Positions 46,454-64,000 of a DNA stretch of 64,000 bases are shown piece by piece (the stretch's first letter is position 1; each line of letters opens with the position of its first letter). Source of the stretch: Prorocentrum cordatum (taxonomy: Eukaryota); contig CAUYUJ010000002.1 in the NCBI GenBank assembly GCA_963575745.1, positions 62,001 to 126,000 of the forward strand, in the 5' to 3' direction. Made by a program: the position numbers and the translations under genes. The notes beneath the pieces were generated by a model. It searched no databases. It saw only the letters and a list, made by a program, of their open reading frames with translations, and had not been told where the DNA came from.

Positions 46454-47244
46454 TAAAACCATCGGTGTCTCGTGGGAGGCTCTGGGGCAATGTGGGAGTG
46501 GTCCTTGGAGGTTCTTGGCCCATTGGGGGCTGCGGGAAGGGCGTCGTCTGGGCTCCCTTCGGCCCCTCTTCGAGCCCTCGTGGGGGTCTCTCTGGAGCAT
46601 CTAAGGGTCCTCTTGGCCCACTTCGGACTTCTTGGGCCGTCTCGGGGGCCTCTTGGGCCGTCCTGGGGCCATGTAGGGGGTCTCGGGCCATCTTGGAGCT
46701 TGCTTTGATGCCTGTGCAGCTTCTAGCGCCCTCTTGGGGCTGTCTTAAGGCCCTCCAGGGGCTCTATGAGGCTGTCTTGGGCTTCTCGTGGGCATTCTTC
46801 GGGCCCTCTGGGGCCGTCTTGGGGCACTCGGCGGGGCCTCCTGAATCGTCTTGTGGCGATCTGGGATGGTCCTGGAGCCGTCTGGAACCGTTTTTGGCCC
46901 GAAATGGCGCGAGCACGGAAAACTCTCAAATACCAAAACAAAAAAAAAGCCTGGCCTCGGGGAACCGTCATCGGGATCCTGTTGGGCCGTCTTGGGAGGC
47001 ATTTGGTCCGTCGTCGGGCCGTCTTGGGCTGGTATAAGGGCTTTGTTCGGGTTCTCTTGGAACGTCCTCCCGCCATCCCGAGCGTCTCGGAGCGGTAGTG
47101 GGGCTGCCTGAGGCCGTCTTGGAGACACCTGGCTGGGGGCTCTCTGGAGCGTCCGAGAGCGGCGGGGCGCTCCCAGGCGCTCGGGGGCATCTCGCGACCT
47201 TCTCCCCTCTTTCGCACGCGCAATGACCAGAATTGCAGTACAGA

Positions 47245-47536
47245 TGACGTTGGGCCCCAGCTTCGCCTTCCGCATCTCGCTGAGCAGCGCCAACGCCCGC
47301 TGCCACTGCTCGCCTTTCCCGCACGCTCTGATTCCAGCGTCGTAGCGCAGATGACGTCGGGCTCCAGCTTCGCCTTCCGCATCTCGCTGAGCAGCGCCAG
47401 GGCTCGCTGTCACTGCTCGCCCTTCTCGCACGCGCTGATCGCTCCAGCTTCGCCTTCCGCATCTCGCTGAGCAGCGCCAATGCCCGCTGTCACTGCTCGC
47501 CTTTCTCGCACGCGCTGATCCAAGCGCTGTAGCTGA
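47245..47536 (-). pseudogene. Three degenerate tandem PPR (pentatricopeptide) repeats
   Basis: SYxAxISACEKGEQ(W/*)QRALALLSEMRKAKLEPDVI three times, with TGA stops, a deletion and a frameshift. Confidence 0.85.
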
Positions 47537-48584
47537 CTTGGGCTGACCCGTGGACTCCGTCCACGAAACCTGCACCAACGGACATGTGGTGATGGACATG
47601 GTGCCGAAAGGCTTCTGTCCCTTCTTGCTGCGTGATCCTGACCTCTCCTCCTCCTCCTCCTCCTCCTCCTCCGCCTCCTCCTCCTCCTCCTCCTGCTCCT
47701 CCTCCTCCTCCTCCTCCTCCTCCTCCTCCTCCTCCTCCTGGGCCTCCTTTCCTCCTCCTCCCCTGGATCCTTCATCCCTTCGACGTTGCGTCGTCAATCG
47801 TCGATCCTACGACGGCGCCCCCGAAAGCACAAGCGTCCAGGGCCCTCCGAGCGTGGAAAACAACTCCTTCGGCCGTGCGATGAGCGTCTCGCCTCTCGTC
47901 CGCTGCCCGTGTCTTGAGAGCAGCTTTGAAGCCTCTTCTGGGGGCCGCCTGGAAGCCGTTCAAGAGCCTCTTGGGAGTCTTTTCGGCCTCTTGGAAGACT
48001 TTGGGGCCGCATTGGGCGCCTCGTGGGCCGTCTTGGGGCTGTCTCGGGTAGCTCTCGGGCCGAATTGGGGCCGCTTTGGGCCGTCTTGGGCCGTTCTTCA
48101 GGCCCCGGGTCCATTTGGGCCGTCTTGGGCACCCTCTGGGCCACCTTGGAGCCGTCCTAGGGCGTCTTGCAGCCTTCTGAGGGGCCTTCGGGGCCGCTTG
48201 GGGCAAGCTTAGAGGGTAGTGGGGCCGTCGTGGGCGGTGTGGAAAGGAGAAACGCGAGAATTATAAAAATGCACGTTTCCCAAATGTGCTGGGACGATTT
48301 GTGCTTCTTGTGGCCCTCTTGAAAGCCTTGGTCGAGGCTTCTAAGGGCCTGGAAGCCACTGAGGCGGCCTTGGGGGCCTCCCGAGCGTCTGAAAGCCGTC
48401 TTGCGGCCGTCTCAGCTTCTTGGAGCCACCGTGAGCCGTTTCGGGGTCCCCCTGCGGCCCTCCGGAAGCGTCCTGAGGCGACCCGGGGGCCGCCCGGAAG
48501 CGCGCCCGAGCTGGCTGGCACGGTTTTGTGCTCTTAGATCCACCGCCCTTCCCGCACGCGGCGCCGCCGGCGTTGTAGCGCAGA

Positions 48585-48689
48585 TGGCGTCGGGCTCCAG
48601 CTTCGCTTCCCGCATCTCGCTCAGCAGCGCCAGAGCCCGCTGCCACTGCTCGCCCTTCTCGCACGCGCTGATCCCAGCATTGTAACTGA
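48585..48689 (-). pseudogene. Single 105-nt PPR repeat between Helitron-like units
   Basis: SYNAGISACEKGEQWQRALALLSEMREAKLEPDAI. Confidence 0.85.
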
Positions 48690-51600
48690 GGACTGACCCG
48701 TGGACTCCGTTCACGACAGTTTTCTGGAATGGTTCTTGGAGGAAAAGCAAAGTGTTTGCTGAGAACCTATAGGCACTACGACGGCCGGGGCGGCGGCAGC
48801 GAGACCGTGCCTTTCTCAGTCAGCTTGGCCCCAGCGCGCGGCTCGTTCGCCCCCCTCGTAGGGGGGGTAGTTTCGAAGTCCCTCGGGGATGTGCGTCGAA
48901 GTCGGAGCCCATAGGAGGCGTCTCAGGAGCGCCCAGGGAAGGTTTCTGGAGGCCCTCGGGGGACGCCACCAGGAGCGTAGGGGGAGGCTCGCAAGGATCC
49001 CCGGGGAGGGTCCAAAAGAGAGCTGCAGGAGGGCCTGCTCCGCGGCTTGACGCAGGATCGGCGACCGGACGGCGCCGCTGTGGGAGCGGCACGGGCACGG
49101 CAGAGCTCCGCTCCCAGCGGCGCCCCAGAGCGGCCCAGAGGGGGCCAACTCGCTGCCACCGCCCTCCCACCCTGCGAGCGCGGGGGGGCGGCACGGTGGT
49201 ATAGACTATAGGGCTGGCCCGTGGACTGGTTCCACTTGCGGGGTGAAGCGTGTGAGGGCCTCTGGGGGTGTCACGGCAACGTGGGGCTCGATCCTCGCAG
49301 TCGGCGCACGCCTCTGCGTGGTGTTGCTTGCTGCCGCTGTTTCATGTTGCTGATCATGCTCGCCGCCGCTGCGTATCGTTGTTGCTTGTGGCTGAAGGGT
49401 GCTGCTGTTGGCCACGCTTGCTTGGTGCGTGCTGCTGACCGCTACATGCTGCTGCTGCTGCCGTTGCTGCTGCTGGTTGCTGTTGCTGTGCGCTGACGCT
49501 ATTGTTGCCTGCTTCGTGTTTCGTGCTGCTGCCTTCGGATCATGGGGGCGTTTGGGGCCACCCCAGGATGATCTTGAGCCACCTTGATGCTGCACTAAGG
49601 CCAAGGCTGGAAATTCAGAAGCAACTGCGGTGGGCCTTAATTTCGAACGATGGTCCATTGTGGCTGTGGCCGCCCGAGGAGTTCGGAGGATGCGCGCGGG
49701 CCGCGTGGGCTGGGGAGAAGACCGTAGGCACTGCGGAGAATGCCCTCAATGGCCAGCCTGTCCGGCCAGAGCACTCTCAGAAAGAGCTCCATGACGAGTC
49801 GCCCATTCAGACCAGAGCAGTTGCAGAGAAGGAGAGAAAAAAAGAGGCGCACGGGCGCCGTCTTCTCCTGGGTGGCCGGCGCGGCCCCAGAGCCTTTGGG
49901 AGACTATCCCTCGGAAGCCCCTTGGAAGTGGTTTTGGGGGTGTCCTGCGGTCTCTCGAAGGCCTCTTGGGGCCTGAATTGGGCCTCTCGGGGGTCCTTCT
50001 GGGGCGTCTGGGGGGGCCGCTTGGGGGCCGGCTGGCGGTTTCGAGGATCATCCTGGAGCGGAGGGCGCGAACTGTCAACTCGAGTTCCCCCTCGTGGGGC
50101 CCTCTTGGGGCCGACTTGGGCCGTCTTGGGGGCCTCTTGGGCCATTTGGGGGCCCTCTTGGGCTGTCGGGGGGGGCCTCTTGGGTCATCTTAGCGCGATC
50201 TTGGGAGCCCTGGGGCTGGCTTGGAGACACCAGAAAGGCGAGAACGCTGAAACTTCTCAGAAAGCCGAAAGAAACCAATGAATTTGGCCTCTTGGGGACC
50301 TCCTTAGGGGCCTCTTTAGGCCTTCTTGAGCCGTCTTCCGGCACTTTGGGGCCTTCTTGGGCGTCTGGGGGGCCTCTTGGTAGGAGGCCAACAAGCATGC
50401 ACCGATACCATTCGCCCCCCCCGCGAGCCCACACAGAAGCTATATGTCCTCATTTGTTAAACGTGCGCAATCGGCGCATGCGCGTGGCCATCCTGTTGCA
50501 CCCTATACAGCATACCCCGCCGAGAAAATGGCCGCGAACACATTCGACGCGATAACTTCCTGTGCCATCTTGGGGACGTCTTGGGGCCCAAACACGGCCC
50601 CAGCGGCCCCCAGGAGCGCCCCGCAAGAGCAACAACAGGCTTCCAAAAGAGGTCCCAATGAACCCCTGTTCCAACTCCACAGCGTGAAATTCGAAACGAT
50701 AACATGTACTGCCACTTTGGGGGCCGTCTGGAGCTTCCAAGACGGCCCCAGAAACCCCCAGGAGCGCCCCAAGAGAGCCATAAGAGGGCTCCAAAAAGGG
50801 CCCCGGTGAGCCCCTGGTTCAACTCCAAGACGTGGATTTCGAAGCGAACACTTTCAGTCCCCTGTGGGCAGCCTCTTGGGCCCCCAAGACGGCCCCAGAG
50901 GTCCCCATGAAAATCCTCCCAAGGCCGCGAGAGGGTTCCGAGAGGGTTCCTTGAATTAGCCCCCCCGGTGATGATCCCATGTGCCCTGCTTCGCTCACGC
51001 ACGACGGGCAGCTTTTGCTGCAAACCCCGCACATGCACAAGGGCACCGCTGTTGCTACAAGTCCGCCTCACGAGCGTTTTTGCTACACTCCCCTCTCATG
51101 TGCAAGGGCTGTGCTCTCGCTTCAGCGCCCTCCACAAGGGACATGATTGTGACAATCGCCCCATGCGCACAAGGCAATGTTGTTAAAACTCCCCTCATAG
51201 ACAAGGGAATCGCTGCTGCTGTAATCCCGCCCGACGTTCGGAGAGCTGTTGTTGCTATCCTCCTCATGCACGAGTGTCGGCTTTTGTTTTTCAATGTCGA
51301 ACGCCATGCGTGAAGAGACGTCCGTCCTTAATGCAATCCCACCCATGTGAAAAAACAATTTGGTTACACTCGACCTCGTGACAGAGAGAGCTAATTCATG
51401 ACGCCACCGGGTTGGGAGTGCCGCTCCTGGTGCTCCTTCTGCGTGGCTGCCTGCGCGCTCGCTTCGCTTGCCCCTCTCTTTTCTTGCTGCCTAGTCGCGG
51501 CCCGGCTAGTGATCGGACGGCTTTCGACTTGCTTCGCGAGCCCGCAGACCAAAAAAAACCCACCACCCCCTCCAGAGACGATGCCCAGGCGAGTTGCCTC

Positions 51601-53191
51601 TCAGAGTCTCCTCGGATGTCTCTTGCACATTTTTTGGAGACCTACTGAAGCGTCTTGGGGGCCTCTTGGCGGTCCCGGGGGCCTCGTGGAGCGTCTCGGG
51701 TGCCCCGGGGAGCCTCTTGGGGCCTCTTCGGGATCTCTTGGGAGCCTCTTGAAGCATGTTGGGCGCCTCTTGGGGCCTACTGGGCGCCTCTTGGGGCCAT
51801 CTTGATTTGCTCTTGGGAGCGCTCTTGGGGCCATCTTTGAGGAGATCAATCAAAGAAGGGGGTGGCTTCAATTACGCCCCCCCCCCCTCGGGAGCCCCAC
51901 TAATCGCCTCTTGGACCCTTCTTGGAGCGCTCTTGGGGCGCTCTTGGGCGCTCTTGGGGCCGTCTTGGGGCTCTCTTGGGGACTTCAGGGGCCCTCTTGG
52001 AGCTGTCTTGAGGGCTCGGAAGGCCATCGGAAGCGAAAAGGCGAGAAGGCAAACATCATTGATTTGCCTTAGGTTGTTGGAAGATGTGGCCTCCTGGGGA
52101 AGCTCCGTGGCCACTCTGAGCCGTCTTGGAACTGTTTTGGGGCCTCTTGGAGCATCTTGAAAGCCATATTGAGCCATCTTGGGCGATCTTCAATCAAGAG
52201 AGGCCCAACAGGAGTCAGCACGAGAGGCCCAAGATGAGTCAAGACGAAATGAAAGGAGTGAAAGGAGAGCCCTCCCGCATGACTTCATCTTGTCTCCACT
52301 TGAGCCGCTCCTGGGTCCTCCCAGGGTTCCGCTCAAGATCTTCGGAAGGCTCAGGTATAGCACCAAGACGGCTCGAGAACCCTAAGATGACCCCTCCCAG
52401 ATGCTCCCAGGAGGCCTTTCGAAGCGCAGCGCCAGGAACATCAAGAAAAAAACCTTCCTGACGCTCGGGGGGCCCCTTTCCAAGTCCGCCTCCCCTCCTT
52501 TTCCCACTCTGGCCCCTTGTGGTCCACGTATGGCTTCCTCCTCCATTCCCTCGACCCGCTCCTGTTTCTTTGTTCGTTCCGTTGACCTGGCGCCAACCAT
52601 CAATGGATCGAAACGTGAACAACTATTTTTCTAAACCCACGAGTTTGATGGCGGTGTATGCTTGTTGGCCTCTGACTTAGGGGCCATCTGGCGGTTTCGG
52701 GGGTCATCCTGGAGCGGAGGGCGCAGACTGTCAGTTCGAGTTCCCTCTCTTGTGGGGCCCTCTTGGGGCCGTCTTGAGGGCCTCTTGGGCCGTCTTGGAA
52801 CCCTCTTGGGCTGTCTGGGAGCTCTCTTGGGGGCCCCTTGGGTCATCTTGGCCCGATCTTGGGAGCCCCGGGGCCGGCGTGGAGCGTGGAGACACCGAAA
52901 AGACGAGAACGCTGAAACTCTTCAAAAACCCAAGGGGAACTCAATCATTTTGGCCTCTCGTGGGGCCCTTCTTGGAAGCCTCTTGGAGCCCTCTTGAGCC
53001 GTCTTCTGGCACTGTGGGGCCGTCTGAAAACCAGATTGGCGACCTCTTGGACCGTCTTGGGGGCGTCTCGGGCCATCTTGGGCCGTCTTGGGGCCCTCAG
53101 TGGCCGTCCTGGATTCCTCCAGGGCCGGCTGGGGCCGGGTTTGGGTCATCGGATCCCCCGCCCTTCTCGCACGCGCGAGTCCTGGCATAGA

Positions 53192-53296
53192 TAACGTTGG
53201 GCCCCAGCTTCGCCTCCCGCATCTCGCTGAGCAGCGCCAGGGCCGGCTGCCACTGCTCGCCCTTCTCGCACGCGCTGATCCCCGCGCTGTAGCTGA
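53192..53296 (-). pseudogene. Single 105-nt PPR repeat between Helitron-like units
   Basis: SYSAGISACEKGEQWQPALALLSEMREAKLGPNVI. Confidence 0.85.
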
Positions 53297-56200
53297 CCAG
53301 GGCAGACCCGTGGACTACGTCCACAGCATGCGGCCCGATCTGGTCACAGTTCCCCTGGCGGCCACGAAAGCTTACTCGCATGCAAGGGTGAGGTTCGATG
53401 TATGTGCGACTTCTGGTCTGCAATGCTGCCAGCGACGCTGCTGGCCGGGTGGCCCACAGCTCGACGGCCCGATCGCCTAATGTCTTTGCTGCCTGCGTCA
53501 TGGCTTGCTCGTCCGCTCGCTGCCGCTCGCTGCCGCTTGCTGCTTGGGGCCGCCTTGAGGTCGTCTTATAAGGGAGCGCTGCGTGACCAAACCCCTCCCA
53601 CCCTCCCCTCAGGGCTGCCCGCTTTTATTACTCGCCCGAAGTCGACGCACGTACCTCTGGCAACCTCTGGCCGTCCAGGCATTTACAATTATTTTTCTGA
53701 GCTGCGTGGTGGGCCGTCTTCGAGGCGCGCCGGGCCACTCCGAGGCCGCGAGGGGCCCTGCGGGTGCGGAAGGTGCCAGGGGCCAGGAGAAAGGGAGCGA
53801 GGAGGAGCGAGGGGAGATGAGCAGGGAGAGAGGAGCGTTGAGCAGTGGGCGAGGGAGCGAGAAGAGGGGGTCCCAGAGCGACAAGCACACGAATCTCCCA
53901 GTGGACTCGACGCGCGCGGGGCCAAGCATTCAGACACCTGGCCTCCTCTTGGGTCGCTTGCTCGCCCTCCTCGCACGCGCTGCTCCCAGCACTGTGGCTG
54001 ACCAGGGCGAACCCGTGGACTTCGCCCACGACCTTCAGGTCCCCCTGGTGCGCCTCCACGGCGCGGCTCCGTGCCATGCGCGCATGCCTTCGCGCTCTCG
54101 CGCCCGCACCCACGGAGAAGAGCAGCGCTCCAAGTGCGGCGAAGATCCGTGGGCGGGGTACGCACGGAAAGCTGTAGTGAGTTCTTCCCAGCTGCCTGGG
54201 TGAAGCGTGACGGCGGGCGCCCGCACCCACGGAGAAGGGCAACGGTCCAGATGCGGCCACGAAGCGTGTCCGGGGTACGGCTCGCAGGCTCTGGAAACTT
54301 GTTTGTCCTGCAGAAACCGGAAGGCGGGCGCTGCCTTCTCCTAGGGATAGCTTGGGAGCTTCTCGGAGCTTCTTTCGGCCTCCTGGACGCTCTCGAGGTC
54401 GTCGGCCGTCTATGGAGTTTGGAGCTTTTCGGCTTCTGCGGCCGTCTAAAGATCGTCTTGGCGCCGTCTTGGGCCGTCTTGGGCAGCTCTTGAGGCTGTC
54501 TTGGATGCCTCGTGGGCTGTCATGAGCGCCTCAGGAGCCGTCCGGATGCTGTGTTGGGCTGCCTTGGGGCCCTCATGCGGCTGTCCTGGGAGATCTTGAA
54601 ACACTCTTGGGAGCCTGTATGGCCGTCGTGGTAACGTCGGATACGAAAAGCACGGGAATTACAAACATGTTTCCTTGTTCGGGCCCTCTCGGGGCCCTTC
54701 TCGGTGCCCCGTCGGGACGTTCTGGAGGCGTCTGAAGCCGTGTACAAGGAATCTTGGGCGCCTTGGAGTCTCTCTTGGACGGTCTTAGGCCCCAAAACGC
54801 TCTTTGGCCATCTTCGAAGCGCACCAGGGCCTGCCGCCCGCTCTTGGGAGCCTTGGTGAGAAGAGCTTTGTACTTCACCTATCGCTCTTTTAATGGGCGT
54901 CTCTGGTGGTCCTTGTGGGTTTTTTTTTCTGGCCATTCTGAAGCTTTTTTGAGCTGCTCTGGGAGCGTTTTGGGACGGGGCCATTTGGGGCCGTCACGGG
55001 GCGTCCGGGAGGCCTTGGACCGTCTTGGAGCTCTCTTGAGGCTGCCTGAGGCCGTCTTGGGAGCCTCTTGGGGCCCCCTCGGAGTTCTCTTGGGGCCGTC
55101 TTGGGGTTCTGTGAGGCCGTCTCAAGGATCTCTGGCGTCGTCTTGGGGCTCTTGTGGGCCGCCTTGGAGACCTCTTAGGGGCCGCTGGCGTCTTCTTGGG
55201 GCGATTTGGGAGGCCTCTTGGCGTGTCCTGGGGCGCTGAGGGGCGCACAAGGCGGGCATGCTAAAAATATGCGTTTCGTGTAAAAACAATGACGATGTGT
55301 GCCTCTTTGGCGTGCGCTCGGGGCCCTCTTGGGGCGTCTTTGCAGCCTCTTGGATCGTCGTGGAGCCCCGCCGGGAAGGCTTCGGGCCCTCGTGGGCCGT
55401 CTCGGGACCGACTAAGGCCGTCTTGGAGCGCTCTTGGACGGTCTGGGAACCCCTCTGGAGCGCCTCTGGGACTGGCCTGAGCGATTCGGCCCTGTGGTGG
55501 CGCTCTAAAGGGGCGATTTTGTCCACTTGAGGCCCTGGGCTTCTCGCACGCGCTTCCACCAGCCATGTAGGAGAGACTAGGGCGAACCCGTGGACTACGT
55601 CCACTTGCGGTGAAGCGTGTGGTGGCCTCTGGGGGAGTCATTAAAACGTGGGCTCGACCTTCGCAGTCGGCGCGTGCCTCTGCGTGTTGCTTGCTGCCGC
55701 TGTTGCATGTTGTTGGTAATGCTCACCGCTGCTGCGTGTCGCTGTTGCTTGTGGCTGAATGGTGCTGCTGATGGCCACGTTTGCTTGGTGCGTGCTGCTG
55801 ACCGCTACTACCTGCTGATGCTACTGCTGTTGCCGCTGCTGTTTGCTGTTGCTGTACGCTGACGGCATTGTTGCCTGCTTCGTATTTCGTGCCGCTGCCT
55901 TCGGGTGACATGGGGCATTTTGGGCAACCCCAGGATGATCTTGAGCCACCTTTGACCTGTGTTTGGGCCAAGGCTGGAAATTAAGAAGCAATTGCGGTGG
56001 GCCTTAATTTCGAACGACATTCCATGTTGGCTGTGGCCGCCCGAGGAGGTCGGAGGATGCGCGCGGGCTGCGCGGACTTGGGAGAAGATCGAAGGCACTG
56101 CGGAGTGTGTCCCCGCTGGCCAGCCTGTCCGGAGCACTCTCAGAAAGAACTCCCGGACGAGTCGCCCATTCAGTCTGGAGCCTTTGCAAAGGAGAAAAGG

Positions 56201-56623
56201 ACATGAGAGGTGCATGGGCGCCATATTTTTCTGGGGGGCCGGCGCGGTCCCAGAGCTCTCTGGGAGACCTTCCCTCGGAAGCCTCCAGGGAACGGTTTTG
56301 AGTGTGTCTTGCAGCCTCTCAAGGGTCTCTTGGAACCCTAGATGGGGGCCTTCTCAGGGGCCTCTTGGGGGCCAGCTGGCGGTTTCGGGGATCATCCCTG
56401 AGCGGAGGGCGCGGACTGTCAGTTCGAGTTCCCCCTCGTGGGGCCCTCTTGGGGCCGTCTTGGGCAGTCTTGGGGGCCTCTTGGGTCATCTTAATTGGCG
56501 CGAACTTGGGAGCCCCAGGGCCAGCTTGGAGCGTGGAGCCCCCTGGGGCCGGCAGGGGCCGGTTTTGTGTCATTGGATCCCCCGCCCTTCTCGCACGCGC
56601 GAGCCCTGGCGTTGTAGTACAGA

Positions 56624-56728
56624 TGACGTTTGGCGCCAGCTTCGCCTCCCGCATCTCGCTGAGCAGCGCCAGGGCCCGCTGCCACTGCTCGCACTTCTCG
56701 CACGCGCTGATCCCAGCGTTGTAGGAGA
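56624..56728 (-). pseudogene. Single 105-nt PPR repeat between Helitron-like units
   Basis: SYNAGISACEKCEQWQRALALLSEMREAKLAPNVI. Confidence 0.85.
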
Positions 56729-58015
56729 CTAGGGCTGACCCGCGGACTCCGTCCACGACATCTTTCTGTAATGGTTCTCGGGGGAACGGAGGAGATATTG
56801 CCGAAACCTATGAGCACAGCGACGGCCAGAGCGGCGGCAGCGAGACCGCGCCTTCGTGTCCGAGCTCTTGCGGCGCTCCGGCAGCTTGGCCCTGGCACAC
56901 AGCTCGTTCGCCCCCCTCCTATTGAGGGCAATTTTGAAGTCTCTCGGGGAGATGCGTCAAAGTCGAAGCCAATCTGAAGCGTCTCAGGAACGCCTGGGGA
57001 AGGGCTCTAGAGGCCCTCGGGGAAAGCTCCTGGGAGCGCCGGGGAGGCTCGCAAGGATCTCCAGGGAGGACCCAAGAGAGTTTCAAGAGGGTGTGACATT
57101 CAATAAGATCTTAACAGAAACCGCTGTTGGGTCAGACATGCTGCGCTCCGTATGCAGCCACGAGCCGGGGGAGGGGTCTGCGGGTTGGTCTGGGGCCGCC
57201 TTGCTCGTCGTGAAGACCACTTGCAACGTTTTGGAAGCCTCTTGGGTTTGAGGCATTGCCGGGGCCGCCTGAGGGTTGTCTAGGGCCGACTTGGGCGTCT
57301 CTGGGGCAGTCTGGGCACCGTCTGGGGGTCGTCTTGGGCCGTCCTGGGTAGCTCTTAAAGGCCTGTCTTGGGTGCCCTGTGGGCCGCCAGGGGCGCCTCG
57401 GGAGCCGTCCTGGGGCCATCTTGGGACCCTGTATGGCCGTCTTCGACGCTATGAGGAGGGCAAGCCCAGGAACTGCCAAAATGCACGTTTTACCAAGGGA
57501 ATGGGATGATTAGTCGGTGTTCGGGCTCTCTTGGGGCTCGTCGTGGAGCCTACTTGCAGCGTTTTGGAAGCCTCTTGGTTCGTCTGGAGGACGTCTGAGG
57601 CGTTGTCGGGGCCGTCTGGGGGTTGGCCTGGGGCTGTCTTGGGCGTCTCTGGAGCAGTCTGGGGATCGTCTGGGGGTCGTCTTGGGCCGTCCTGGGCCGC
57701 TCTTCAGGGCTGTCTTGGGTGCCCCGTGGGCCGCCAAGGGCGCCTCGGTCTGGAGCCGTCCTGGGGCCATCTTGGGACCCTGTATGGCCGTCTTGGACGC
57801 AATGAAGCAGAGCTCACTCGGGGCGTTTTGGAAGACTCTTGGACCGTCTTCGGCCGTCTGGGGGCCCTCTTGGGGGCCTCCTCGTGCGTCTGGGAACGCT
57901 CTTGGGCCATCTTGGAAGCGCGCCGAGGCCTGCTGGGGCTCGCAGGGGCCGCCGGAAAGGGCCGGTCCGCTGCCACCGATCGGGAGCTCCGCGAGCGCCG
58001 CCATTGTACGAGAGA

Positions 58016-58120
58016 TAACGACGGGACCCAGCTTCGCCTTCCGTATCTCGCTGAGCAGTGCCAGTGCCCGCTGCCACTGCTCTCCCTTCTCGCACGCGCT
58101 GATACCAGCGCTGTAGCTGA
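58016..58120 (-). pseudogene. Single 105-nt PPR repeat between Helitron-like units
   Basis: SYSAGISACEKGEQWQRALALLSEIRKAKLGPVVI. Confidence 0.85.
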
Positions 58121-59288
58121 CTAGTGTGAAACCGTGGATTAAATCCACGGCGTGCTGAGCCTGGGGCTCGCACACCGTATGTGACCAGCTCGTCGAAGTT
58201 GAACAGCTCCGGCGTCCCTGGGGCGGCAGGGGCGACCTTCGGAGGCACATGTGAACGTCACGTTTGAGGGCACTGTTTGGGGGCTGTGTTTGTGGGCCAC
58301 GTTTGGGGGCGCCTGGGGGCTACGCGTGGGAGTGACGCTCGGGGGCCACGCTTACTGGGGCGATAGGGGCGACCTTCGGAGGCTTTGTGGGGGCCGCCTT
58401 TGGGGGTTCCGTTTGGGGGCCTCGTGCGGGGCCGACGTTTAAGGGGCCACGTCTGGGGGCCACCCTGGAAAGCAGTCGGGGAGCTCCGGGGGCACTGACC
58501 TGGAAGCGTTGAAAGTATTGGGTTTTGCTGATCGCGCCGGGCCTGGGCGCGATTAGCACAAACATAAGGGTTTTCAGGCTCAGTCGGAGTGAGGGGGCCA
58601 CGTTTACGGGCCTCGGTTGGGGGCCGCGCAGGGAGGTCTTGGGGTCATTTGAGGGTCTCGGGCCGTCTCGGAGGTCGCTTTGTGTCCTCTTGTGCGGCAT
58701 CTTGGGCCCTTCTTGGGGCGTTTTGGGGCCATCTTGGGGGCCTCGGGCCGTTTCGGAAGTCGCTTTGGGCCCGCTCGGGCGGGGTCTGGGGCCCAGTTGG
58801 GGCTGACTTGGGAGTCACTTGAAACTCTCTTGGGCCGTCGTGGGGCCCTACTGTCTGCGGGCCTTCTTGGGCTGTCTGGGGGTCCTCCTGGGGCCCTCTT
58901 GGACCGTGCAGGGGCGATGTAGGAAGCCTCCAAGGCCATCCTGGGCCGTTGCGGGCCCGAAATGGAGGGAACAGGAAACCCCTCGAAACCTTCGGGAAAC
59001 GCACAAGTTTTGCCCCTTGGCGCCGTCCAGGCGGTTCTCGGGGGCCGCCTTTTTTGGGCCGTCAGGGGGCTCCGGTCGGGTCGGCTTCGGCCCTTGTGGG
59101 CGTCTGTGAGGCCGTCTTGGAGCGATCTGGGGGTCCTGGAGCCGTCGGCGAGCGCTCCAGGGGCCTCCTGGGGCCGTGGAGGAGCGCCCCAGAGGCTCTC
59201 CGGGCGGCCCGCGGGCTCTCTGGGCGGCCCGGGGCGCTGCCGCAGATTTTCCTTTTCGCAGGCGCCGCGGCCACAATGGTAGTACAGA

Positions 59289-59395
59289 TGACGTTGGGCT
59301 CCAGCTTTGCCTCCCGCATCTCGCTGAGCACCGCCAGTGCCCGCTGCCACTGCTCGCCCTTCTCGCACGCGCTGATCCCAGCGTTGTAGGAGAGA
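59289..59395 (-). pseudogene. Single PPR repeat (107 nt, extra TC) between Helitron-like units
   Basis: SYNAGISACEKGEQWQRALAVLSEMREAKLEPNVI. Confidence 0.85.
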
Positions 59396-61212
59396 CTAGG
59401 GCTGACCCGCGGCCTTCTGGCCGCGGAATCTGCCCGCCATGGCGTGAACGTGGACGTGGAGCGTCTCTGGGGCCTCGCAGGCGAGGGGAGGTTGGAGGGG
59501 CCCCCGGACGGCGTGGATGGAGGTGGCCGCTGGAGAGGGAGGTGGGCGAGGGATGCAGGCAAGCAGGCCTGAAGGAAGGAACGCGATGGTAGAGGCGGTG
59601 TCAGCGGAAGCACACCCATGCAGGTATGACATGATGTGGACAGAAGCTGCTTCTCACGCCACAATATGTGTTCATCATAGCTTCTGCGGGGAGGGTAGCC
59701 GTGATAATTGTATCTGCTCCTCGCCGGGGCCGAATGATAATTTTATCTGGTTGTGTGGTGACAATGGGGGCGGTGGGCGCGGCCTAAGAAGCCCGCAAGA
59801 GGGCGGCGAGACGGCCCAAAAGTTCTCCAGGACTGGCCACGAAGCTTCTTAAACGGCCCCTGAGGGCCCCTCGAACTCCCTAAGTCGGACCCACACGAAT
59901 CGGCATTTCGAGCGCACCGCCCCAAGACGGAAGACGTCCCCAAAAGGCGCAGAGATGGCTCCCATAGGGTCCAAGAAGCCCCTCAGACGACGCTGGAAGT
60001 TCGACGCTCCGCAAGAGAGAAGGATCCAAGGCCTCTTGGGGGCCGTTTAGGGGCCTCTTTTCGTCCTCCTAGGGGTCTCTCGGGGCCCTCTTGGGCCGTC
60101 TTGAGTGCCTCGTGGGTTGTCTTTGGGCGATGTGGGGCCGTCTCGGGCGCCTCTCGGACCATCTTGAGGCCGTCTTGGGACCATCTTGGGCCGATCTTGG
60201 GCGCTCTTGGGGCTGTCTTGGATGTTTCTTGGGCTGTCTCGGGCGCTTCTGGAGCCGTCCCGTGGCCGTCTCAGGCCGTGTTGGGTGGGGCGATCTGGAT
60301 CCCTGTACAGTCGTCTGGGAGACTGTGCAGATGGAAAGGCTTGGAGACGGGGCAGTGGAGGCCTGCACAGCCGTCTTGGAGACGGGGCGCTGGGGCCGTC
60401 CAGGGCTAGTATGAACTGCTCTTGGAGCTGTCTTGCGTGCGTCTTGTGCCGTCTGTGGGGCTTTTTGGGGGCCCTCCTGAGGGCCTCTGAGTGCGAAGCT
60501 GTCTTGGATGCGGTTTGGGCCGTCTCGGGTGCCTCTGGAGCCGTTCCGGGGCCGTGTGGGGCGATATAATGAAAATGTGCGTTTCCCGTCGGGAATGGGA
60601 CGAATTTGGCATCTTGGGGCTCTCCTGAAGGCCCTCCTGGGCCATCTTGGGAGCCTCCTGACTTGCCTTGGGAGCCCCTGGCGCAGTCTTGGAGCTCCTT
60701 AGGGTGCTCTGAGGCCGTCTTGGCGCCCCCTGGAGCCTCTCGGAGCCGTCCCGTGGGCTATTATGAACTGCTCTTGGGGCTGTCTTGTGTGCGTCTTGGG
60801 CCGTCTGGGGCGCCTCTGGAGCCGTCCCGGGGCCGCCTCGGGCCGTTTGGGGGCCCTCCTGGGGTGCTCTGGGGGTGTCTTGGGGCGAGCCGGGGGCCTG
60901 TAAACCCAACTTGGGCACGGTGAAAACGAAAAGAGCAAGCATACCAAAAATGTACGTTTCAATTTTTGCCTCTTGGGTCCCTCCTGGGGGTCCTCCCGGG
61001 CCGCCTTGGGAGCCTTCTGGCCTGCCTTGGAGGCCTCTGGGGCCGACCTGGGGCTCGGTTGGGTCCCTCTTGGTCTGTCTGGGCGCCCTCGTGGGCGTCT
61101 CTGAGCCGTCTCGGAGCGGCCCGGGGGCTCACAGGGCGGCCCGGGGGTCCCGGCCAGTCTTTCGGGACAGAGGGCCTCCTGGCACGCAAAGATTGCTGCA
61201 TTGTAGAAGAGA

Positions 61213-61317
61213 TGACGTCGGGACCCAGTTTCGCCCCCCGCATCTCGTTGAGCAGCGCCAGTGCCCGCTGCCACTGCTCGCCCTTCTCGCACGCGCTGAT
61301 CCCAGCGTTGTAGGAGA
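61213..61317 (-). pseudogene. Single 105-nt PPR repeat between Helitron-like units
   Basis: SYNAGISACEKGEQWQRALALLNEMRGAKLGPDVI. Confidence 0.85.
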
Positions 61318-62511
61318 CTAGGGCAGACCTGTGGACTCCGTCCACGACATCAGCTCGACGAAGCGAGGGGTCTCTGACCACGATGGCCAGTTGAAGGCGC
61401 TCTCCACACCCTCCAGGACCTCCTGCTCTCCTGTGTTCCTCAGCTGCTGCTGCTGCTCGGAGGTCCTGCTGCTTCCTCCCCCTCCTCCTCCTCCTCCTCC
61501 TCCGCCTCCTCCTCCTCCTCCTCCTCCTCTTCCACCTTCTTCTCCTCTTTCGCTGGATTCTCCATGCCCTCGGTCGGCAATCGTCGATCCTACGACGACT
61601 CTCCCCAACAGAGAAACATCGAAGGCCCTCGGAGCGTCCAACATTGTTCTTTTGTGCCTTCGATATGCCGGTCGCCTCTCGTCCGCTCCCCCCCTCCTGG
61701 AAGCAATTCTGAGGCCACGTAGGGCTTGGTGGGAGCTGTTTGGGGATCTCTTGGGGCGTTTTTGCATGCGACATGCCTGTCGCCTCTCGTCCGCTCCCCT
61801 GCTCCTGGAGGGAATTCTGAAGCCACTGAAGGCTTCGTGGGGGCCGTTTTGGAGCCTCTTCGGCCTTCTTTTGGACCTCCCGGGGGGGCTCTTAGGGCCC
61901 TCTCGGGCCGTCTTGGGTGCCTCTTGGGCCGTCTTGGGGCCGTCTGAGACCCGCCTCGGCGCCTCTTGGGCTGTCTTGGGCCGTCTTGGGCCGCTCCTGG
62001 GGCCGTCTTGGGTGCCTCTTGGGCCGTCTTGGGCGCCTCCTGGGCCGTCCTGGGGCCGTCCTGGGGCGTCTTGGGACCGTCTGGGGGCCCTCCTGGCCCG
62101 TCTTGGGGCTCTCTTGGGGTCCTCTTCGGCCGTCTTGGAGCGGTCGGGGGGACTTCTTGGGCCGTCTTGGAGCGTCGGGAAGCCGAAGAGGCGAGGAGGC
62201 CGAAAACATCGAAAAACACAATAGAAATCGACGATTTCTGTCGCTCGGGGCCCTCTTGGGAGGCCTCTTGGGAGGCCTCTTCGGGCGTCTTGGACGCCTC
62301 TTGGGCCGCCTGGGGCGAATCTCGGGCGTCTTGGGCCCATCTTTAAGCGTGCCGGGGCTCTCCGGGGCCGTCTTGGGGGCTTCTGGGGGCCCTCCCGACA
62401 TGTCCTGGAGCCTGCCTGGGCGGCCCGGGGCGGGGGCCAGCCCGGGGCGGTTTTGGTGCATTGGGGCCTGCGCCATTCTGGCACGCACTGGGCCCTGCAA
62501 TGTAGTAGAGA
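61318..62511 (-). mobile_element. Complete 1194-nt non-autonomous Helitron-like unit, near-identical to its neighbour over about 850 nt
   Basis: Same TCTCTACTAC start and same hairpin plus CTAG end. It is followed by a 105-nt PPR unit. Confidence 0.82.
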
Positions 62512-63476
62512 CTAGGGCAGACCTGTGGACTCCGTCCACGACATCAGCTCGACGTGGCGAGGGGTCTCTGGGCAAGCGCGGGGGGGTGCGGCTGCAGGGC
62601 CGAAAGGCAATCATGATGCCTTCGATATGCCGGTCGCCTCTCGTCCGCTCCCCCCCTCCTGGAAGCAATTCTGAACCACTTAGGGCTTCGTGGGGGCCGT
62701 TTGGAGATCTCTTGGGGCGTTTTTGCCTGCGATATGCCTGTCGCCTCTCGTCCGCTCCCCCGCTCCTGGAGGGAATTCTGAAGCCACTGAAGGCTTCGTG
62801 GGGGCCGTTTCGGAGCCTCTTCGGCCTTCTTTTGGGCCTCCCGGGGGGGCTCTTAGGGCCCTCTCGGGCCGTCTTGGGTGCCTCTTGGGCCGTCTTGGGG
62901 CCGTCTGAGGCCCGCCTCGGCGCCTCTTGGGCTGTCTTGGGCCGTCTTGGGCCGCTCCTGGGGCCGTCTTGGGTGCCTCTTGGGCCGTCTTGGGCGCCTC
63001 CTGGGCCGTCCTGGGGCCGTGCTGGTGCGTCTTGGGACCGTCTTGGGGCCCTCCTGGCCCGTCTTGGGGCTCTCTTGGGGTCCTCTTCGGCCGTCTTGGA
63101 GCGGTCGGGGGGACTTCTTGGGCCGTCTTGGAGCGTCGGGAAGCCGAAGAGGCGAGGAGGCCGAAAACATCGAAAAACACAACAGAAATCGACGATTTCT
63201 GTCGCTCGGGGCCCTCTTGGGAGGCCTCTTGGGAGGCCTCTTCGGGCGTCTTGGACGCCTCTTGGGCCGTCTGGGGCGAATCTCGGGCGTCTTGGGCCCA
63301 TCTTTAAGCGTGCCGGGGCTCTCCGGGGCCGTCTTGGGGGCTTCGGGGGGCCCTCTCGACATGTCCTGGAGCCTGCCTGGGCGGCCTGGGGCGGCCCGGG
63401 GCCAGCCCGGGGCGGTTTCGGTGCATTGGGGCCTGCGCCCTTCTGGCACGCACTGGGCCCTGCAATGTAGTAGAGA
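62512..63476 (-). mobile_element. Complete 965-nt non-autonomous Helitron-like unit
   Basis: Starts TCTCTACTACATTGC at 63476 and ends GTGGAC-GGA-GTCCAC-AGGTCTGCC-CTAG at 62512. Confidence 0.82.
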
Positions 63477-64000
63477 CTAGGGCTGACCCGTGGACTCCGT
63501 CCACGACATCTTTCTGGAATGGTTCTCGGAGGAACGGCGCAGATTGTATCGAAAATCTACAAACACGGCGGCGGCTCGGGCGGCGGCAGCGAGACCGCGC
63601 CTTCGTGTCCGAGCTCTTGCAGCGCTGCAGCAGCTTGGCCCAGCGCACTGCTCGTTCACCCCCCTCCTATTGAGGACAGTTTCGAAGTCTCTCGGGGATG
63701 TGCGTCGAAGTCGAAGCCCATCTGAGGCGTCTCAGGAGCGCTCGGGGAAGGGCTCGCCATCGGGGAAAGCCACCGAAAGCGCCGGGGAGGCTCGCAAGGA
63801 TCTACAGGGAGGGCCCAAGAGAGCTTCAAGAAAATTTGAAATACAGTGAACTCTTAAGAGAAACCGCTGTTGGGTCGGCCATCACCTCCGGGCGCGCCTT
63901 GATGGTGCGATCCAGTCGCATCACCGCCAACGGGAGGGTTTGTTCGCCATGTCCCATTCTGTTCGCCCAGAGGGTCAGTGGAGGCCTTCGGGCGAACAGA

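What the first reader, a model, noticed from the sequence alone, without database searches (positions are those of the whole stretch)
55540..63476. Element 5' ends mimic, or derive from, their PPR target
The target after the A|T site reads TCAGCTACAACGCTGGGATCAGCGCGTGCGAGAAGGGC. Element starts read TCTGTACTACAACGCCAGGGCTCGCGCGTGCGAGAAGGGC (56623), TCTCTCCTACATGGCTGGTGGAAGCGCGTGCGAGAAG (55576), TCTCTACTACATTGCAGGGCCCAGTGCGTGCCAGAAGGGC (63476) and TCTGTACTACCATTGTGGCCGCGGCGCCTGCGAAAAGG (59288). Each is the PPR start plus 2 nt, then diverged. Inference: the Rep protein may recognise one motif as both origin and target. That would explain insertion into PPR repeats and head-to-tail insertion in front of other copies, and it could let PPR repeats be recruited as new 5' ends.
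Basis: partly seen in the sequence, partly recalled or inferred. Interest (0 to 1): 0.8.

Follow-up and report, generated by a model that had tools for sequence, protein, structure and literature searches.

The report
Helitron-like elements homing to PPR repeats
Rolling-circle-type (Helitron-like) mobile elements in what looks like a dinoflagellate genome start with a diverged copy of the first 40 bases of the host's PPR repeat and always sit directly in front of such a sequence, which hints at how these transposons choose where to land.

Summary
All four quoted strings are at the stated minus-strand coordinates. The quoted "target" is the consensus of the window's PPR unit starts, not a literal sequence.

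Minus strand 47-64 kb is a head-to-tail array of at least 12 non-autonomous elements with Helitron1-type ends:
- 5' TC and 3' CTRR
- a hairpin 12 nt from the 3' end
- no terminal inverted repeats and no target duplication

They sit at the A|T between 105-nt PPR units or directly in front of another element.

Of 13 element 5' ends, 8 resemble the PPR start more than any of 8,890 control 44-mers. C is close (2 controls), D and N25 are marginal, and E and J are not similar. The match is gap-free. The block GCGTGCGAGAAGG is kept at 91%, as in real PPR units (93%).

The PPR-like piece runs on, in register, into subfamily-specific sequence. It also occurs where no PPR unit lies upstream, and it is no target duplication. 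So the boundaries are right.

All 13 element 3' ends in the window, and one on a metagenome contig, are followed by a PPR-like start. The metagenome contig also shows uninterrupted (empty) junctions.

Derivation from PPR is well supported. Recognition of one motif by the transposase as both origin and target is a sensible but untested inference, and no Rep gene is in the window. I call it a new variant of a known kind.

The parts
63477..64000 (-). Element Z, 3' part only (its 5' end lies beyond the window). E-like. Ends in hairpin + CCCTAG at 63477-63507.
   Evidence: (84% identity to the 3' 405 nt of E)
62512..63476 (-). Element A (965 nt). PPR-like 5' end TCTCTACTACATTGC...GCGTGCCAGAAGGGC, 3' CTAG. 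Lies directly behind Z's CTAG.
61318..62511 (-). Element B (1194 nt). 97% identical to A over 860 nt. Lies directly behind A's CTAG.
61213..61317 (-). PPR unit P1 (105 nt, open frame SYNAGISACEKGEQWQRALALLNEMRGAKLGPDV)
   Evidence: (E 8e-31)
59396..61212 (-). Element C (1817 nt). Its 5' end is shared with N25. Its 3' hairpin has a different sequence (CCGCGGCC/GGCCGCGG) at the same place.
59289..59395 (-). PPR unit P2 (107 nt). A full unit whose start, TCTCTCC, carries the element-type extra 2 nt.
   Evidence: best hit of the 5'-end profile, E 4.4e-10
58121..59288 (-). Element D (1168 nt). Starts TCTGTAC. Hairpin with a compensated pair (GTGGAT/ATCCAC). 3' end ACACTAG.
58016..58120 (-). PPR unit P3 (105 nt)
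56729..58015 (-). Element E (1287 nt). Its 5' end starts TCTCTCGTAC but is otherwise no longer PPR-like. Its 3' part is shared with Z and J.
56624..56728 (-). PPR unit P4 (105 nt)
55577..56623 (-). Element F (1047 nt). 5' end TCTGTACTACAACGCC...GCGTGCGAGAAGGGC. Same subfamily as I, and as K at the 5' end.
54002..55576 (-). Element G (1575 nt). Lies directly behind F's CTAG. 3' end CTGG.
53297..54001 (-). Element H (705 nt). Begins with a host-type PPR start (TCAGCC..., 43 nt, no extra 2 nt) and ends in hairpin + CTGG. Either a freshly recruited 5' end or a truncated PPR unit fused to a 5'-truncated element.
   Evidence: E 3.7e-6; 29 of 33
53192..53296 (-). PPR unit P5 (105 nt)
49206..53191 (-). 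Element I (3986 nt, possibly composite). F-like 5' end with an 8-nt deletion. F-like 3' 940 nt. Ends CCCTATAG.
   Evidence: (82.6% to F)
48690..49205 (-). Element J (516 nt). E-like, with degenerate ends (CTAG lost).
48585..48689 (-). PPR unit P6 (105 nt)
47537..48584 (-). Element K (1048 nt). 5' end TCTGCGCTACAACGCC...GCGTGCGGGAAGGGC. 3' end CCCAAG.
47245..47536 (-). 2.7 uninterrupted PPR units (U47a, U47b, U47c). U47a and U47b have an in-frame TGA. U47c (from 47351) is a full unit with the K-type start TCTGCGC.
47199..47244 (-). 5' end of element L (TCTGTACTGCAATTC...GCGTGCGAAAGAGG). Its 3' end was not found.
25122..25195 (-). Isolated junction 22 kb from the PPR array: hairpin + GCCTAG (N25up) directly followed by a C-like 5' end (N25, from 25163).

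Best explanation
These are non-autonomous Helitron-like (Helitron1-type) rolling-circle transposons, in what is probably a Prorocentrum-like dinoflagellate genome.

Shown:
- Each element starts with TC and ends in a hairpin followed by about 12 nt and CTRR.
- There are no inverted terminal repeats and no target duplication.
- Each element lies, always in the same orientation, exactly between the last A of one 105-nt PPR repeat unit and the first T of the next, or directly in front of the first T of a resident element.
- The first ~40 nt of the elements are homologous, in register, to the first ~38 nt of the PPR unit, with a 2-nt longer prefix.
- This piece is part of the element.
- Within it, the block GCGTGCGAGAAGG and the TC..TACA start are kept across otherwise unrelated element families, while the 10 nt between them and everything beyond have drifted.

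Inferred:
- The left end was captured from a PPR unit.
- The family's HUH-type Rep/helicase transposase, encoded elsewhere, nicks at A|TC next to this word when it starts transposition.
- The transposase uses the same recognition to open the target. It therefore lands in front of any sequence that looks like its own left end: PPR unit starts, and the 5' ends of resident copies.
- That would explain the one-unit-one-element alternation, the head-to-tail stacks and the fixed orientation.
For: Termini
- 13 of 13 5' ends start TC.
- 11 of 14 3' ends are CTRR (9 CTAG, 2 CTGG). A hairpin lies 12 nt from the end and is kept by compensating changes in D and C.
- No inverted terminal repeats: 6-12 of 30 matches.

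Precise A|T insertion
- 7 of 7 elements with a PPR unit upstream abut its final A. 14 of 14 3' ends are followed by T.
- Taking out TC...CTAG restores GTCA|TC(A/T)(G/C)C. This is the uninterrupted junction seen twice on metagenome contig L002.

Similarity of the 5' ends to the PPR start
- 8 of 13 exceed all 8,890 controls.
- The PPR-unit profile hits 11 of 13 5' ends at profile positions 1-~40.
- Identity by block: GCGTGCGAGAAGG 91% in elements against 93% in PPR units; middle block 54%; beyond the motif 30-37%.
- A profile built from 5' ends scores PPR units P2, P1 and P4 as high as true 5' ends.

The PPR-like piece belongs to the element
- Gap-free identity continues into the next 40 nt within subfamilies: A/B 38 of 40, F/I 34 of 40, C/N25 29 of 40. 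The median over all 66 pairs is 0.35.
- It is present behind another element's CTAG with no PPR unit upstream (A, B, G, N25), with N25 lying 22 kb from the array.
- It is no closer to the unit downstream of its own element than to other units, in 6 of 6 cases.

Target choice
- 13 of 13 3' ends in the window, and 1 of 1 in L002, are followed by a PPR-like start, among 2,134 AT dinucleotides in the window.
- At least 10 of the elements have unrelated bodies.
- Copies of one subfamily have different 3' neighbours: F, I and the L002 element; E, Z and J.

The PPR units are real coding repeats
- Pfam PPR_2 scores 40.4 bits (cut-off 30) on three L002 units.
- The units have no stops, and variable columns by codon position are 5/8/15.

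Literature (passages read)
- Helitron hallmarks, a left end that is essential, and head-to-tail junctions and tandem arrays: PMC5876387.
- A maize head-to-tail G/T junction, with insertion at host A plus the T of a resident 5' end proposed: PMC2267711.
Against: - No Rep/helicase ORF is in the window: 0 of 123 ORFs of 200 aa or more. No genome is held. The autonomous partner and its specificity are therefore unknown.
- Almost all evidence comes from one 17-kb array, one isolated junction and one 1.3-kb metagenome contig.
- Part of the array grew by duplication: A/B are 97% identical, and the block E-3'/P4/F-5' resembles J-3'/P6/K-5'. There are thus fewer independent insertions than junctions.
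- Two 5' ends (E, J) are not PPR-like, and two (D, N25) only marginally so.
- No copy with both ends in non-PPR DNA was available to test the 5' boundary independently.
- The tree of 33 columns cannot tell one capture from several.
Confidence: 0.6

Rival explanations
1. Homology does the targeting, not protein recognition. The PPR-like left end lets circular or single-stranded intermediates recombine with PPR unit starts, or exchange sequence with them by gene conversion. On this view the similarity and the insertion sites reflect recombination rather than a Rep recognition word.
For: - Hybrid-looking units exist. P2 is a full PPR unit with the element-type prefix TCTCTCC directly behind a CTAG.
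- U47c is a full unit with K-type features (TCTGCGC, TGCGGGAA) 1.2 kb from K.
- H starts with a host-type prefix.
- A profile built from 5' ends cannot tell P2, P1 and P4 from true 5' ends.
Against: - A crossover inside the 40 nt would give the inserted copy a host-type prefix and the downstream unit an element-type prefix. Instead 10 of 13 elements keep the longer prefix, and 7 of 8 units behind a 3' end keep the 5-nt prefix.
- Conversion from PPR units would also refresh the middle block, which is only 54% like PPR while the flanking block is 91%.
- The junctions are exact at A|T.
Confidence: 0.2
2. The PPR-like 40 nt are host sequence (partial PPR units), and the mobile or intronic unit starts only behind them. 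For example, it could be a GC-AG intron running from ...GAGAAGG|GC to CTAG|.
For: - Two Prorocentrum cordatum gene models read ...ISACEK-V-SYSAGISACEKG.... This is what splicing from G|GC behind an in-frame partial unit to CTAG|TC would give.
- H in the window has such an in-frame host-type partial unit.
Against: - The 40 nt co-vary, in register, with the subfamily-specific sequence behind them.
- They are far more diverged than real units (20-29 of 33 against 27-32 of 33).
- They carry a frame-breaking extra 2 nt.
- They occur without any PPR unit upstream (A, B, G, N25).
- Removing them together with the element, not without them, restores the 105-nt periodicity seen in L002.
- Gene models are predictions. 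I saw no RNA.
Confidence: 0.08
3. A few founding insertions were multiplied by unequal crossing-over within a PPR array. On this view the apparent strict target specificity is an artefact of local duplication.
For: - A and B are tandem near-copies.
- The block E-3'/P4/F-5' is homologous to J-3'/P6/K-5'.
- All copies share one orientation, as in any tandem array.
Against: - C, D, G, H and L have bodies with no counterpart in the window beyond termini and simple repeats. Each still lies at the same kind of junction.
- The isolated junction at 25 kb and the metagenome contig L002 repeat the rule at other loci.
- 27 extra-Phe junctions in 26 P. cordatum gene models on many contigs fit further such insertions (indirect).
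Confidence: 0.1
4. The elements also act as spliceosomal introns (Helitron-derived introners of PPR genes). Copies starting TCT|GT (or TCT|GC) and ending CTAG| would be spliced out, leaving TCT, which is one extra Phe codon (..V I F S Y..).
For: - Splicing GTC ATC T|GT...CTAG|TC AGC TAC predicts V-I-F-S-Y.
- 27 such 36-residue junctions occur in 26 of 195 retrieved proteins, against 318 canonical ones. All 26 are named P. cordatum gene models.
- None of 69 junctions in 25 entries from short contigs or other sources has it.
- Helitron-derived introners are reported as about 1% of classified introner families (PMC12130899, passages).
Against: - Only 4 of 13 5' ends in the window have G at position 4 (D, F, L, K).
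- P2 has a frameshift, and U47a and U47b have stops. This array is therefore not one open gene.
- Gene models may be ab initio.
Confidence: 0.15

Closest known systems
Canonical (Helitron1-type) non-autonomous Helitrons, including head-to-tail pairs and arrays in maize and bats
   Same: - 5' TC and 3' CTRR (mostly CTAG)
- A hairpin 12 nt from the 3' end
- Insertion between A and T, with no target duplication and no inverted repeats
- Families that share only their ends
- CTAG|TC head-to-tail junctions, explained by insertion at the host A plus the T of a resident 5' end (PMC2267711 and PMC5876387, passages)
   Different: - The left end is homologous to the sequence on the 3' side of the target.
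- Insertion is confined to one ~40-nt word (PPR unit starts and the family's own 5' ends) rather than to AT dinucleotides in general.
- No autonomous copy has been seen.
- I found no paper describing such a Helitron among those listed by the searches. I read only listings and abstracts there, and passages of four papers.
IS200/IS605 and IS91 families (bacterial HUH transposons)
   Same: The short sequence next to the cleavage site at the element's end is also the obligatory target, so end recognition and target choice are one act. For IS608 and 'transposon-directed target site selection' I saw only the mention in PMC5876387 (passages) and a reference-list entry in PMC3627910. The details are recalled.
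   Different: - Those use 4-5 nt read by base pairing with the element's own DNA, in bacteria.
- Here the shared word is about 40 nt, lies inside the element's left end, and the recogniser is unknown.
- This is a comparison of mechanism, not of membership.
Target-specific DNA transposons and retrotransposons of multicopy genes (Dada in small RNA genes; R1/R2 in rDNA)
   Same: They home to a repeated, conserved host sequence, so many equivalent sites exist and copies pile up in arrays. For Dada I saw the abstracts of PMC3706591 and PMC8869645 in the listing. R1/R2 is recalled.
   Different: - Those have a different transposition chemistry.
- Those elements do not carry a copy of their target as their own terminus.
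- The target here is a protein-coding repeat.
Introners, including Helitron-derived ones
   Same: They are non-autonomous transposons sitting inside genes. The terminal AG and, in some copies, a GT at positions 4-5 could serve as splice sites (PMC12130899, passages).
   Different: - Splicing is not shown here.
- Most copies in the window lack a usable donor.
- The introner elements reported for P. cordatum are defined by inverted repeats at intron ends (PMC10666404, passages). That is not this structure.

Membership tests
Helitron (Helitron1 type) | 5' terminus TC | tested here: met
   13 of 13 element starts begin TC, and 12 of 13 begin TCT
Helitron (Helitron1 type) | 3' terminus CTRR | tested here: met
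   11 of 14 (9 CTAG, 2 CTGG). The exceptions are K (CAAG), I (CTATAG) and J (terminus lost)
Helitron (Helitron1 type) | Palindrome or hairpin about 10-12 nt upstream of the 3' end | tested here: met
   A 6-8-bp stem ending 12 nt from the terminus. D (GTGGAT/ATCCAC) and C (CCGCGGCC/GGCCGCGG) keep the stem with other letters. The 3'-end profile finds 13 sites, all on the minus strand
Helitron (Helitron1 type) | Insertion between host A and T without target site duplication | tested here: met
   5' flank is A in 7 of 7 elements that abut host DNA. 3' flank is T in 14 of 14. The junction is restored to that of the uninterrupted units in L002. The 5' end is not closer to its own downstream unit in 6 of 6 cases
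Helitron (Helitron1 type) | No terminal inverted repeats | tested here: met
   First 30 nt against the reverse complement of the last 30 nt: 6-12 of 30 in 11 elements
Helitron (Helitron1 type) | An autonomous relative encoding Rep (HUH) + Pif1-like helicase with the same termini | not testable with these tools
   None of the 123 ORFs of 200 aa or more in the window matches a Rep or helicase family. No genome is held. Scans of other collections found only one short contig
Helitron2 / Helentron | 5' hairpin and asymmetric terminal inverted repeats, with a T-only 5' preference | tested here: not met
   No complementarity between the ends, and TC/CTAG ends throughout. Features taken from PMC3627910 (passages)
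Introner (intron-generating transposon) | Copies are removed from mRNA by the spliceosome at sites provided by the element or its target | not testable with these tools
   Splicing could not be examined, because no RNA data for this sequence were available. The only hint is indirect: 27 extra-Phe junctions in P. cordatum gene models. Just 4 of 13 5' ends have G at position 4
PPR repeat (the target) | Match to Pfam PPR models above the curated cut-off, in tandem 35-residue units | tested here: met
   Three units of L002 score PPR_2 40.4 (cut-off 30), PPR 32.8 (25) and PPR_3 31.8 (25). Single in-window units score below the cut-off (24.9 and 21.2 bits). The 105-nt periodicity is shown

The most novel reading that the evidence does not exclude
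The family's transposase reads one ~40-nt word (TC..TACAAYGC..GCGTGCGAGAAGG) both as its origin of transposition and as its landing site.

If so, three things would follow:
- The elements home to PPR repeat junctions and to their own 5' ends, building arrays.
- PPR units can be promoted to new 5' ends.
- Copies that begin TCT|GT are spliced as GT-AG introns that leave one extra Phe codon. That would make this a PPR-specific Helitron introner, and would explain the 36-residue '..VIFSY..' repeats in Prorocentrum gene models.
Probability: 0.2. Interest if true: 0.85.

Novelty: new variant of a known kind. Interest (0 to 1): 0.6.

Why it matters
How Helitrons choose targets, and what the transposase reads in the left end, are poorly understood beyond the A|T rule and the need for an intact left end.

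A natural family whose left end is a copy of its target gives a direct handle on this. It supplies two oligonucleotides that should behave alike, and a conserved 13-nt block to mutate.

It would also show a eukaryotic rolling-circle transposon using the bacterial IS200/IS605-IS91 logic, where end recognition equals target choice.

It would account for the way PPR arrays in a bloom-forming dinoflagellate lineage are broken up. It may also explain hundreds of short 'PPR protein' gene models there, which could be pieces of such arrays.

Tried and rejected
Searches and tools that gave nothing usable
- Whole genome: none is held.
- Earlier findings of this scan: nothing by place, sequence or words.
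- Sequencing runs: only small shares (0.22 or less), and no RNA holder listed.
- Laying four runs gave only short repeat contigs. There were no informative joints or loose ends at element boundaries. Bins holding PPR units and termini were very deep and unique bodies about 1, which I do not use as a copy number.
- Metagenome scan: L001 is a bacterial chance match. Only L002 is related.
- Scans of viral contigs and genome contigs with a 3'-end pattern and a PPR pattern: 0 hits.
- The tree of 5' ends against PPR starts (33 columns) is unresolved. Holding the 5' ends in one clade is not rejected (p-AU 0.08).

Models considered and rejected
- The 40 nt are a target duplication.
- The element carries the PPR-like piece at its 3' end. 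This fails because the copy behind CTAG is the well-conserved one and continues into a full unit.
- Rolling-circle concatemers of one element. This fails because neighbours mostly belong to unrelated families.
- In-frame GT/GC-AG splicing for all copies. Reading, a donor at GAC|GTCA removes 4 nt and breaks the frame, and only D, F, L and K have G at position 4.

Literature
- The searches listed no paper on a Helitron with a target-like left end or on Helitrons in PPR genes.
- I read listings and abstracts, plus passages of PMC3627910, PMC5876387, PMC2267711, PMC12130899 and PMC10666404.
- I did not open supplements. The P. cordatum paper's repeat tables may bear on this.

Full report
WHAT IS THERE

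The window is GC-rich (57-69% in 2-kb bins) and looks eukaryotic. No whole genome is held for it.

On the minus strand, from about 64 kb down to 47 kb, lies a head-to-tail series. The order, with P for a 105-nt PPR unit, is:

Z | A | B | P1 | C | P2 | D | P3 | E | P4 | F | G | H | P5 | I | J | P6 | K | 2.7 PPR units | L

An isolated 3'-end/5'-end junction lies at 25164/25163.

The PPR units translate without stops to SY(N/S)AGISACEKGEQWQRALALLSEMREAKLxPxV. Three tandem units on the related contig L002 pass Pfam's PPR cut-offs, with PPR_2 at 40.4 bits against 30. The closest named proteins are Prorocentrum cordatum gene models (up to 81% identity), followed by Polarella and Symbiodiniaceae. The window is therefore probably from a Prorocentrum-like dinoflagellate. 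This is not established.

CHECK OF THE OBSERVATION

The four quoted strings start at 56623, 55576, 63476 and 59288 on the minus strand. The quoted target is not literal. It equals the majority consensus of the starts of the seven in-window units.

The motif GCGTGCGAGAAGGG (2 mismatches or fewer) occurs 17 times, all on the minus strand, against 1.25 expected.

I scored each 5' end against the PPR start and compared it with 8,890 other TC-started 44-mers of the window:
- A, B, F, G, H, I, K and L exceed every control.
- C is reached by 2 controls.
- D and N25 are reached by 61 controls each.
- E and J are not similar.

A profile of the whole 105-nt unit hits 11 of 13 element starts at profile positions 1 to about 40. 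E-values for the whole window range from 3.7e-6 (H) and 1e-3 (A) to 3-4 (C, D, N25).

Anchored on TAC and without gaps, 10 of the 12 5' ends examined in this register (J was not included) keep the exact 15-nt spacing to GCGTGC. Nine match the PPR consensus at 20-29 of 33 positions.

ARE THE BOUNDARIES RIGHT?

Five lines of evidence say the boundaries are right.

1. Removing TC...CTAG restores ...GTCA|TC(A/T)(G/C)CTAC..., and so the 105-nt period. This is the uninterrupted junction seen twice on L002...AACGTCA|TCAGCTACAGC and ...GACACCA|TCAGCC.
2. The PPR-like piece runs on, gap-free, into subfamily-specific sequence. Identity in the next 40 nt is A/B 38 of 40, F/I 34 of 40, C/N25 29 of 40 and A/F 27-28 of 40, against a median of 0.35 over all 66 pairs.
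3. The piece stands directly behind another element's CTAG with no PPR unit upstream in A, B, G and N25. N25 lies 22 kb from the array.
4. It is much more diverged than real units and carries a frame-breaking extra 2 nt.
5. It is no closer to the unit downstream of its own element than to other units in 6 of 6 cases, so it is not a target duplication.

The 3' boundary is set by subfamily copies with different neighbours. E is followed by P4, Z by A, J by P6, F by G, I by J, and the L002 element by a PPR array.

One gap remains. No copy with both ends in non-PPR DNA was available.

WHAT KIND OF ELEMENT

- 13 of 13 starts are TC.
- 11 of 14 ends are CTRR (9 CTAG, 2 CTGG).
- A 6-8-bp hairpin ends 12 nt from the terminus. 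It is kept with different letters in D and C.
- There are no inverted terminal repeats.
- The flanks are A and T, with no duplication.

These are the Helitron1 hallmarks as summarised in PMC5876387 and PMC3627910 (passages).

Bodies are mostly unrelated between elements. They are filled with 10-11/21-nt CCCAAGACGGCC-type repeats.

None of the 123 ORFs of 200 aa or more in the window matches a Rep or helicase family. The elements are therefore non-autonomous, and the transposase is unseen.

TARGET CHOICE

All 13 3' ends found by a 3'-end profile in the window, and the one on L002, are followed by TC plus a PPR-like start. Seven are followed by PPR units and the rest by element 5' ends. The window holds 2,134 AT dinucleotides.

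All elements have the orientation of the PPR reading frame. A profile built from element 5' ends scores P2, P1 and P4 as high as true 5' ends.

In stacks between two PPR units, the upstream copy abuts the unit's A. The downstream copies have the more decayed 3' termini:
- F CTAG, then G CTGG, then H CTGG
- I CTATAG, then J with the terminus lost

This fits successive canonical insertions at the host A plus the T of the resident 5' end, one of the two models proposed for maize (PMC2267711, passages). The sample is small.

WHY 'DERIVED FROM', AND WHY PERHAPS 'FUNCTIONAL'

The PPR repeat is a conserved protein motif across dinoflagellates. Its units here differ mostly at third codon positions: variable columns are 5/8/15, with 75 synonymous against 69 non-synonymous codon differences. 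The repeat is therefore the older partner.

The element ends match it in register with no indel over 33 nt. D, E and J keep traces of the GTGGCAGCG that follows in the unit.

Conservation inside the 5' end is uneven:
- GCGTGCGAGAAGG: 91% (units 93%)
- TAC + 5 nt: 68%
- the 10 nt between: 54%
- beyond: 30-37%

Gene conversion from neighbouring units would also refresh the middle. Neutral decay would not spare one block. Selection on two sub-motifs of the left end is the simplest reading.

It is inference that the selecting agent is the transposase, and that the same recognition opens the target. It is supported by analogy with IS200/IS605 and IS91. The mention is in PMC5876387. The details are recalled.

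POSSIBLE RECRUITMENT

Three cases look like exchange between units and 5' ends:
- H (54001) starts with a host-type 43-nt PPR piece (29 of 33, no extra 2 nt) and ends in a normal hairpin-CTGG.
- P2 is a full unit with the prefix TCTCTCC.
- U47c is a full unit with K-type TCTGCGC and TGCGGGAA.

They could equally be truncation, recombination or conversion products. The tree of 33 columns is unresolved, with one clade for the 5' ends not rejected (p-AU 0.08).

A SIDE LEAD

Splicing from TCT|GT (element positions 4-5) to the terminal CTAG| would leave TCT and give ..V-I-F-S-Y...

Among 195 retrieved PPR proteins there are 318 canonical junctions and 27 with this extra Phe. These 27 lie in 26 proteins, all named P. 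cordatum gene models. None of 69 junctions in 25 entries from short contigs or other sources has it. Two models read ..ACEK-V-SYSAG...

This suggests that such insertions are common in that genome and are modelled as introns. It is no evidence of splicing, and no RNA data for this sequence were available.

In the window only D, F, L (GT) and K (GC) have a possible donor. P2's frameshift and the TGA codons in U47a and U47b show that this array is not one open gene.

CAVEATS

- The evidence is essentially one array, one junction and one contig.
- Part of the array is duplicated: A/B, and E-3'/P4/F-5' against J-3'/P6/K-5'.
- The laid runs were uninformative.

VERDICT

Derivation of the left end from the PPR unit is well supported. 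'One motif as origin and target' is plausible and testable, but not shown.

Head-to-tail Helitrons are known. A Helitron whose left end copies its target and that homes to a coding repeat did not turn up in my searches (listings and abstracts only). I rate it a new variant of a known kind, interest 0.6.

Noticed in passing
window 46600-63400 (element bodies), e.g. 61890-62180: All element bodies are filled with degenerate 10-11/21-nt tandem repeats, GGCCGTCTTGGG on the + strand (CCCAAGACGGCC on the element strand). Contigs of four public runs pile up on them very deeply (bin 61904-62221).
   Followed up: partly
window 24539-24743: A foldback with 80-nt arms (83% complementary, 45 nt between them), downstream of the N25 5' end. 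It may be a small inverted-repeat element of the kind counted as introner elements in dinoflagellates.
   Followed up: partly
window 39886-39972 (minus strand): A degenerate PPR unit (profile positions 19-105, E 8.6e-14) with stop codons, followed by an unoccupied junction GACGTCA|TCACCTGCAATTC. It is a PPR pseudogene remnant away from the array.
   Followed up: partly
window 47352-47536 (minus strand): Units U47a and U47b share an in-frame TGA (CAG TGA CAG, where other units have TGG). They are joined by an internal deletion (..GCTGGAGC|GATCAGCGCG..).
   Followed up: no
proteins P0014-P0191: Hundreds of short (113-360 aa) Prorocentrum cordatum 'PPR' gene models were retrieved. Many start at the Met of ..SEMREAKL.. 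and cross an extra-Phe junction, and some read frameshifted PPR units or element sequence. They may be fragments of element-riddled PPR arrays rather than genes.
   Followed up: partly
window 23400-25650, 26900-27060, 47640-47750, 61470-61540: Long (GGA)n/(CCT)n and related triplet tracts lie inside or next to elements. B, K and the element upstream of 25164 share such a tract near their 3' ends.
   Followed up: no
window 49300-49520 and 55690-55900; L002 350-640: A CAG/CAA-rich stretch precedes the 3' hairpin in F, I and the L002 element. It marks one subfamily found both in the window and in a marine metagenome contig.
   Followed up: partly
window 1-47000: None of the long ORFs in the rest of the window matched a Pfam family above its cut-off. 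Genes there, if any, are probably split by introns and were not annotated here.
   Followed up: no
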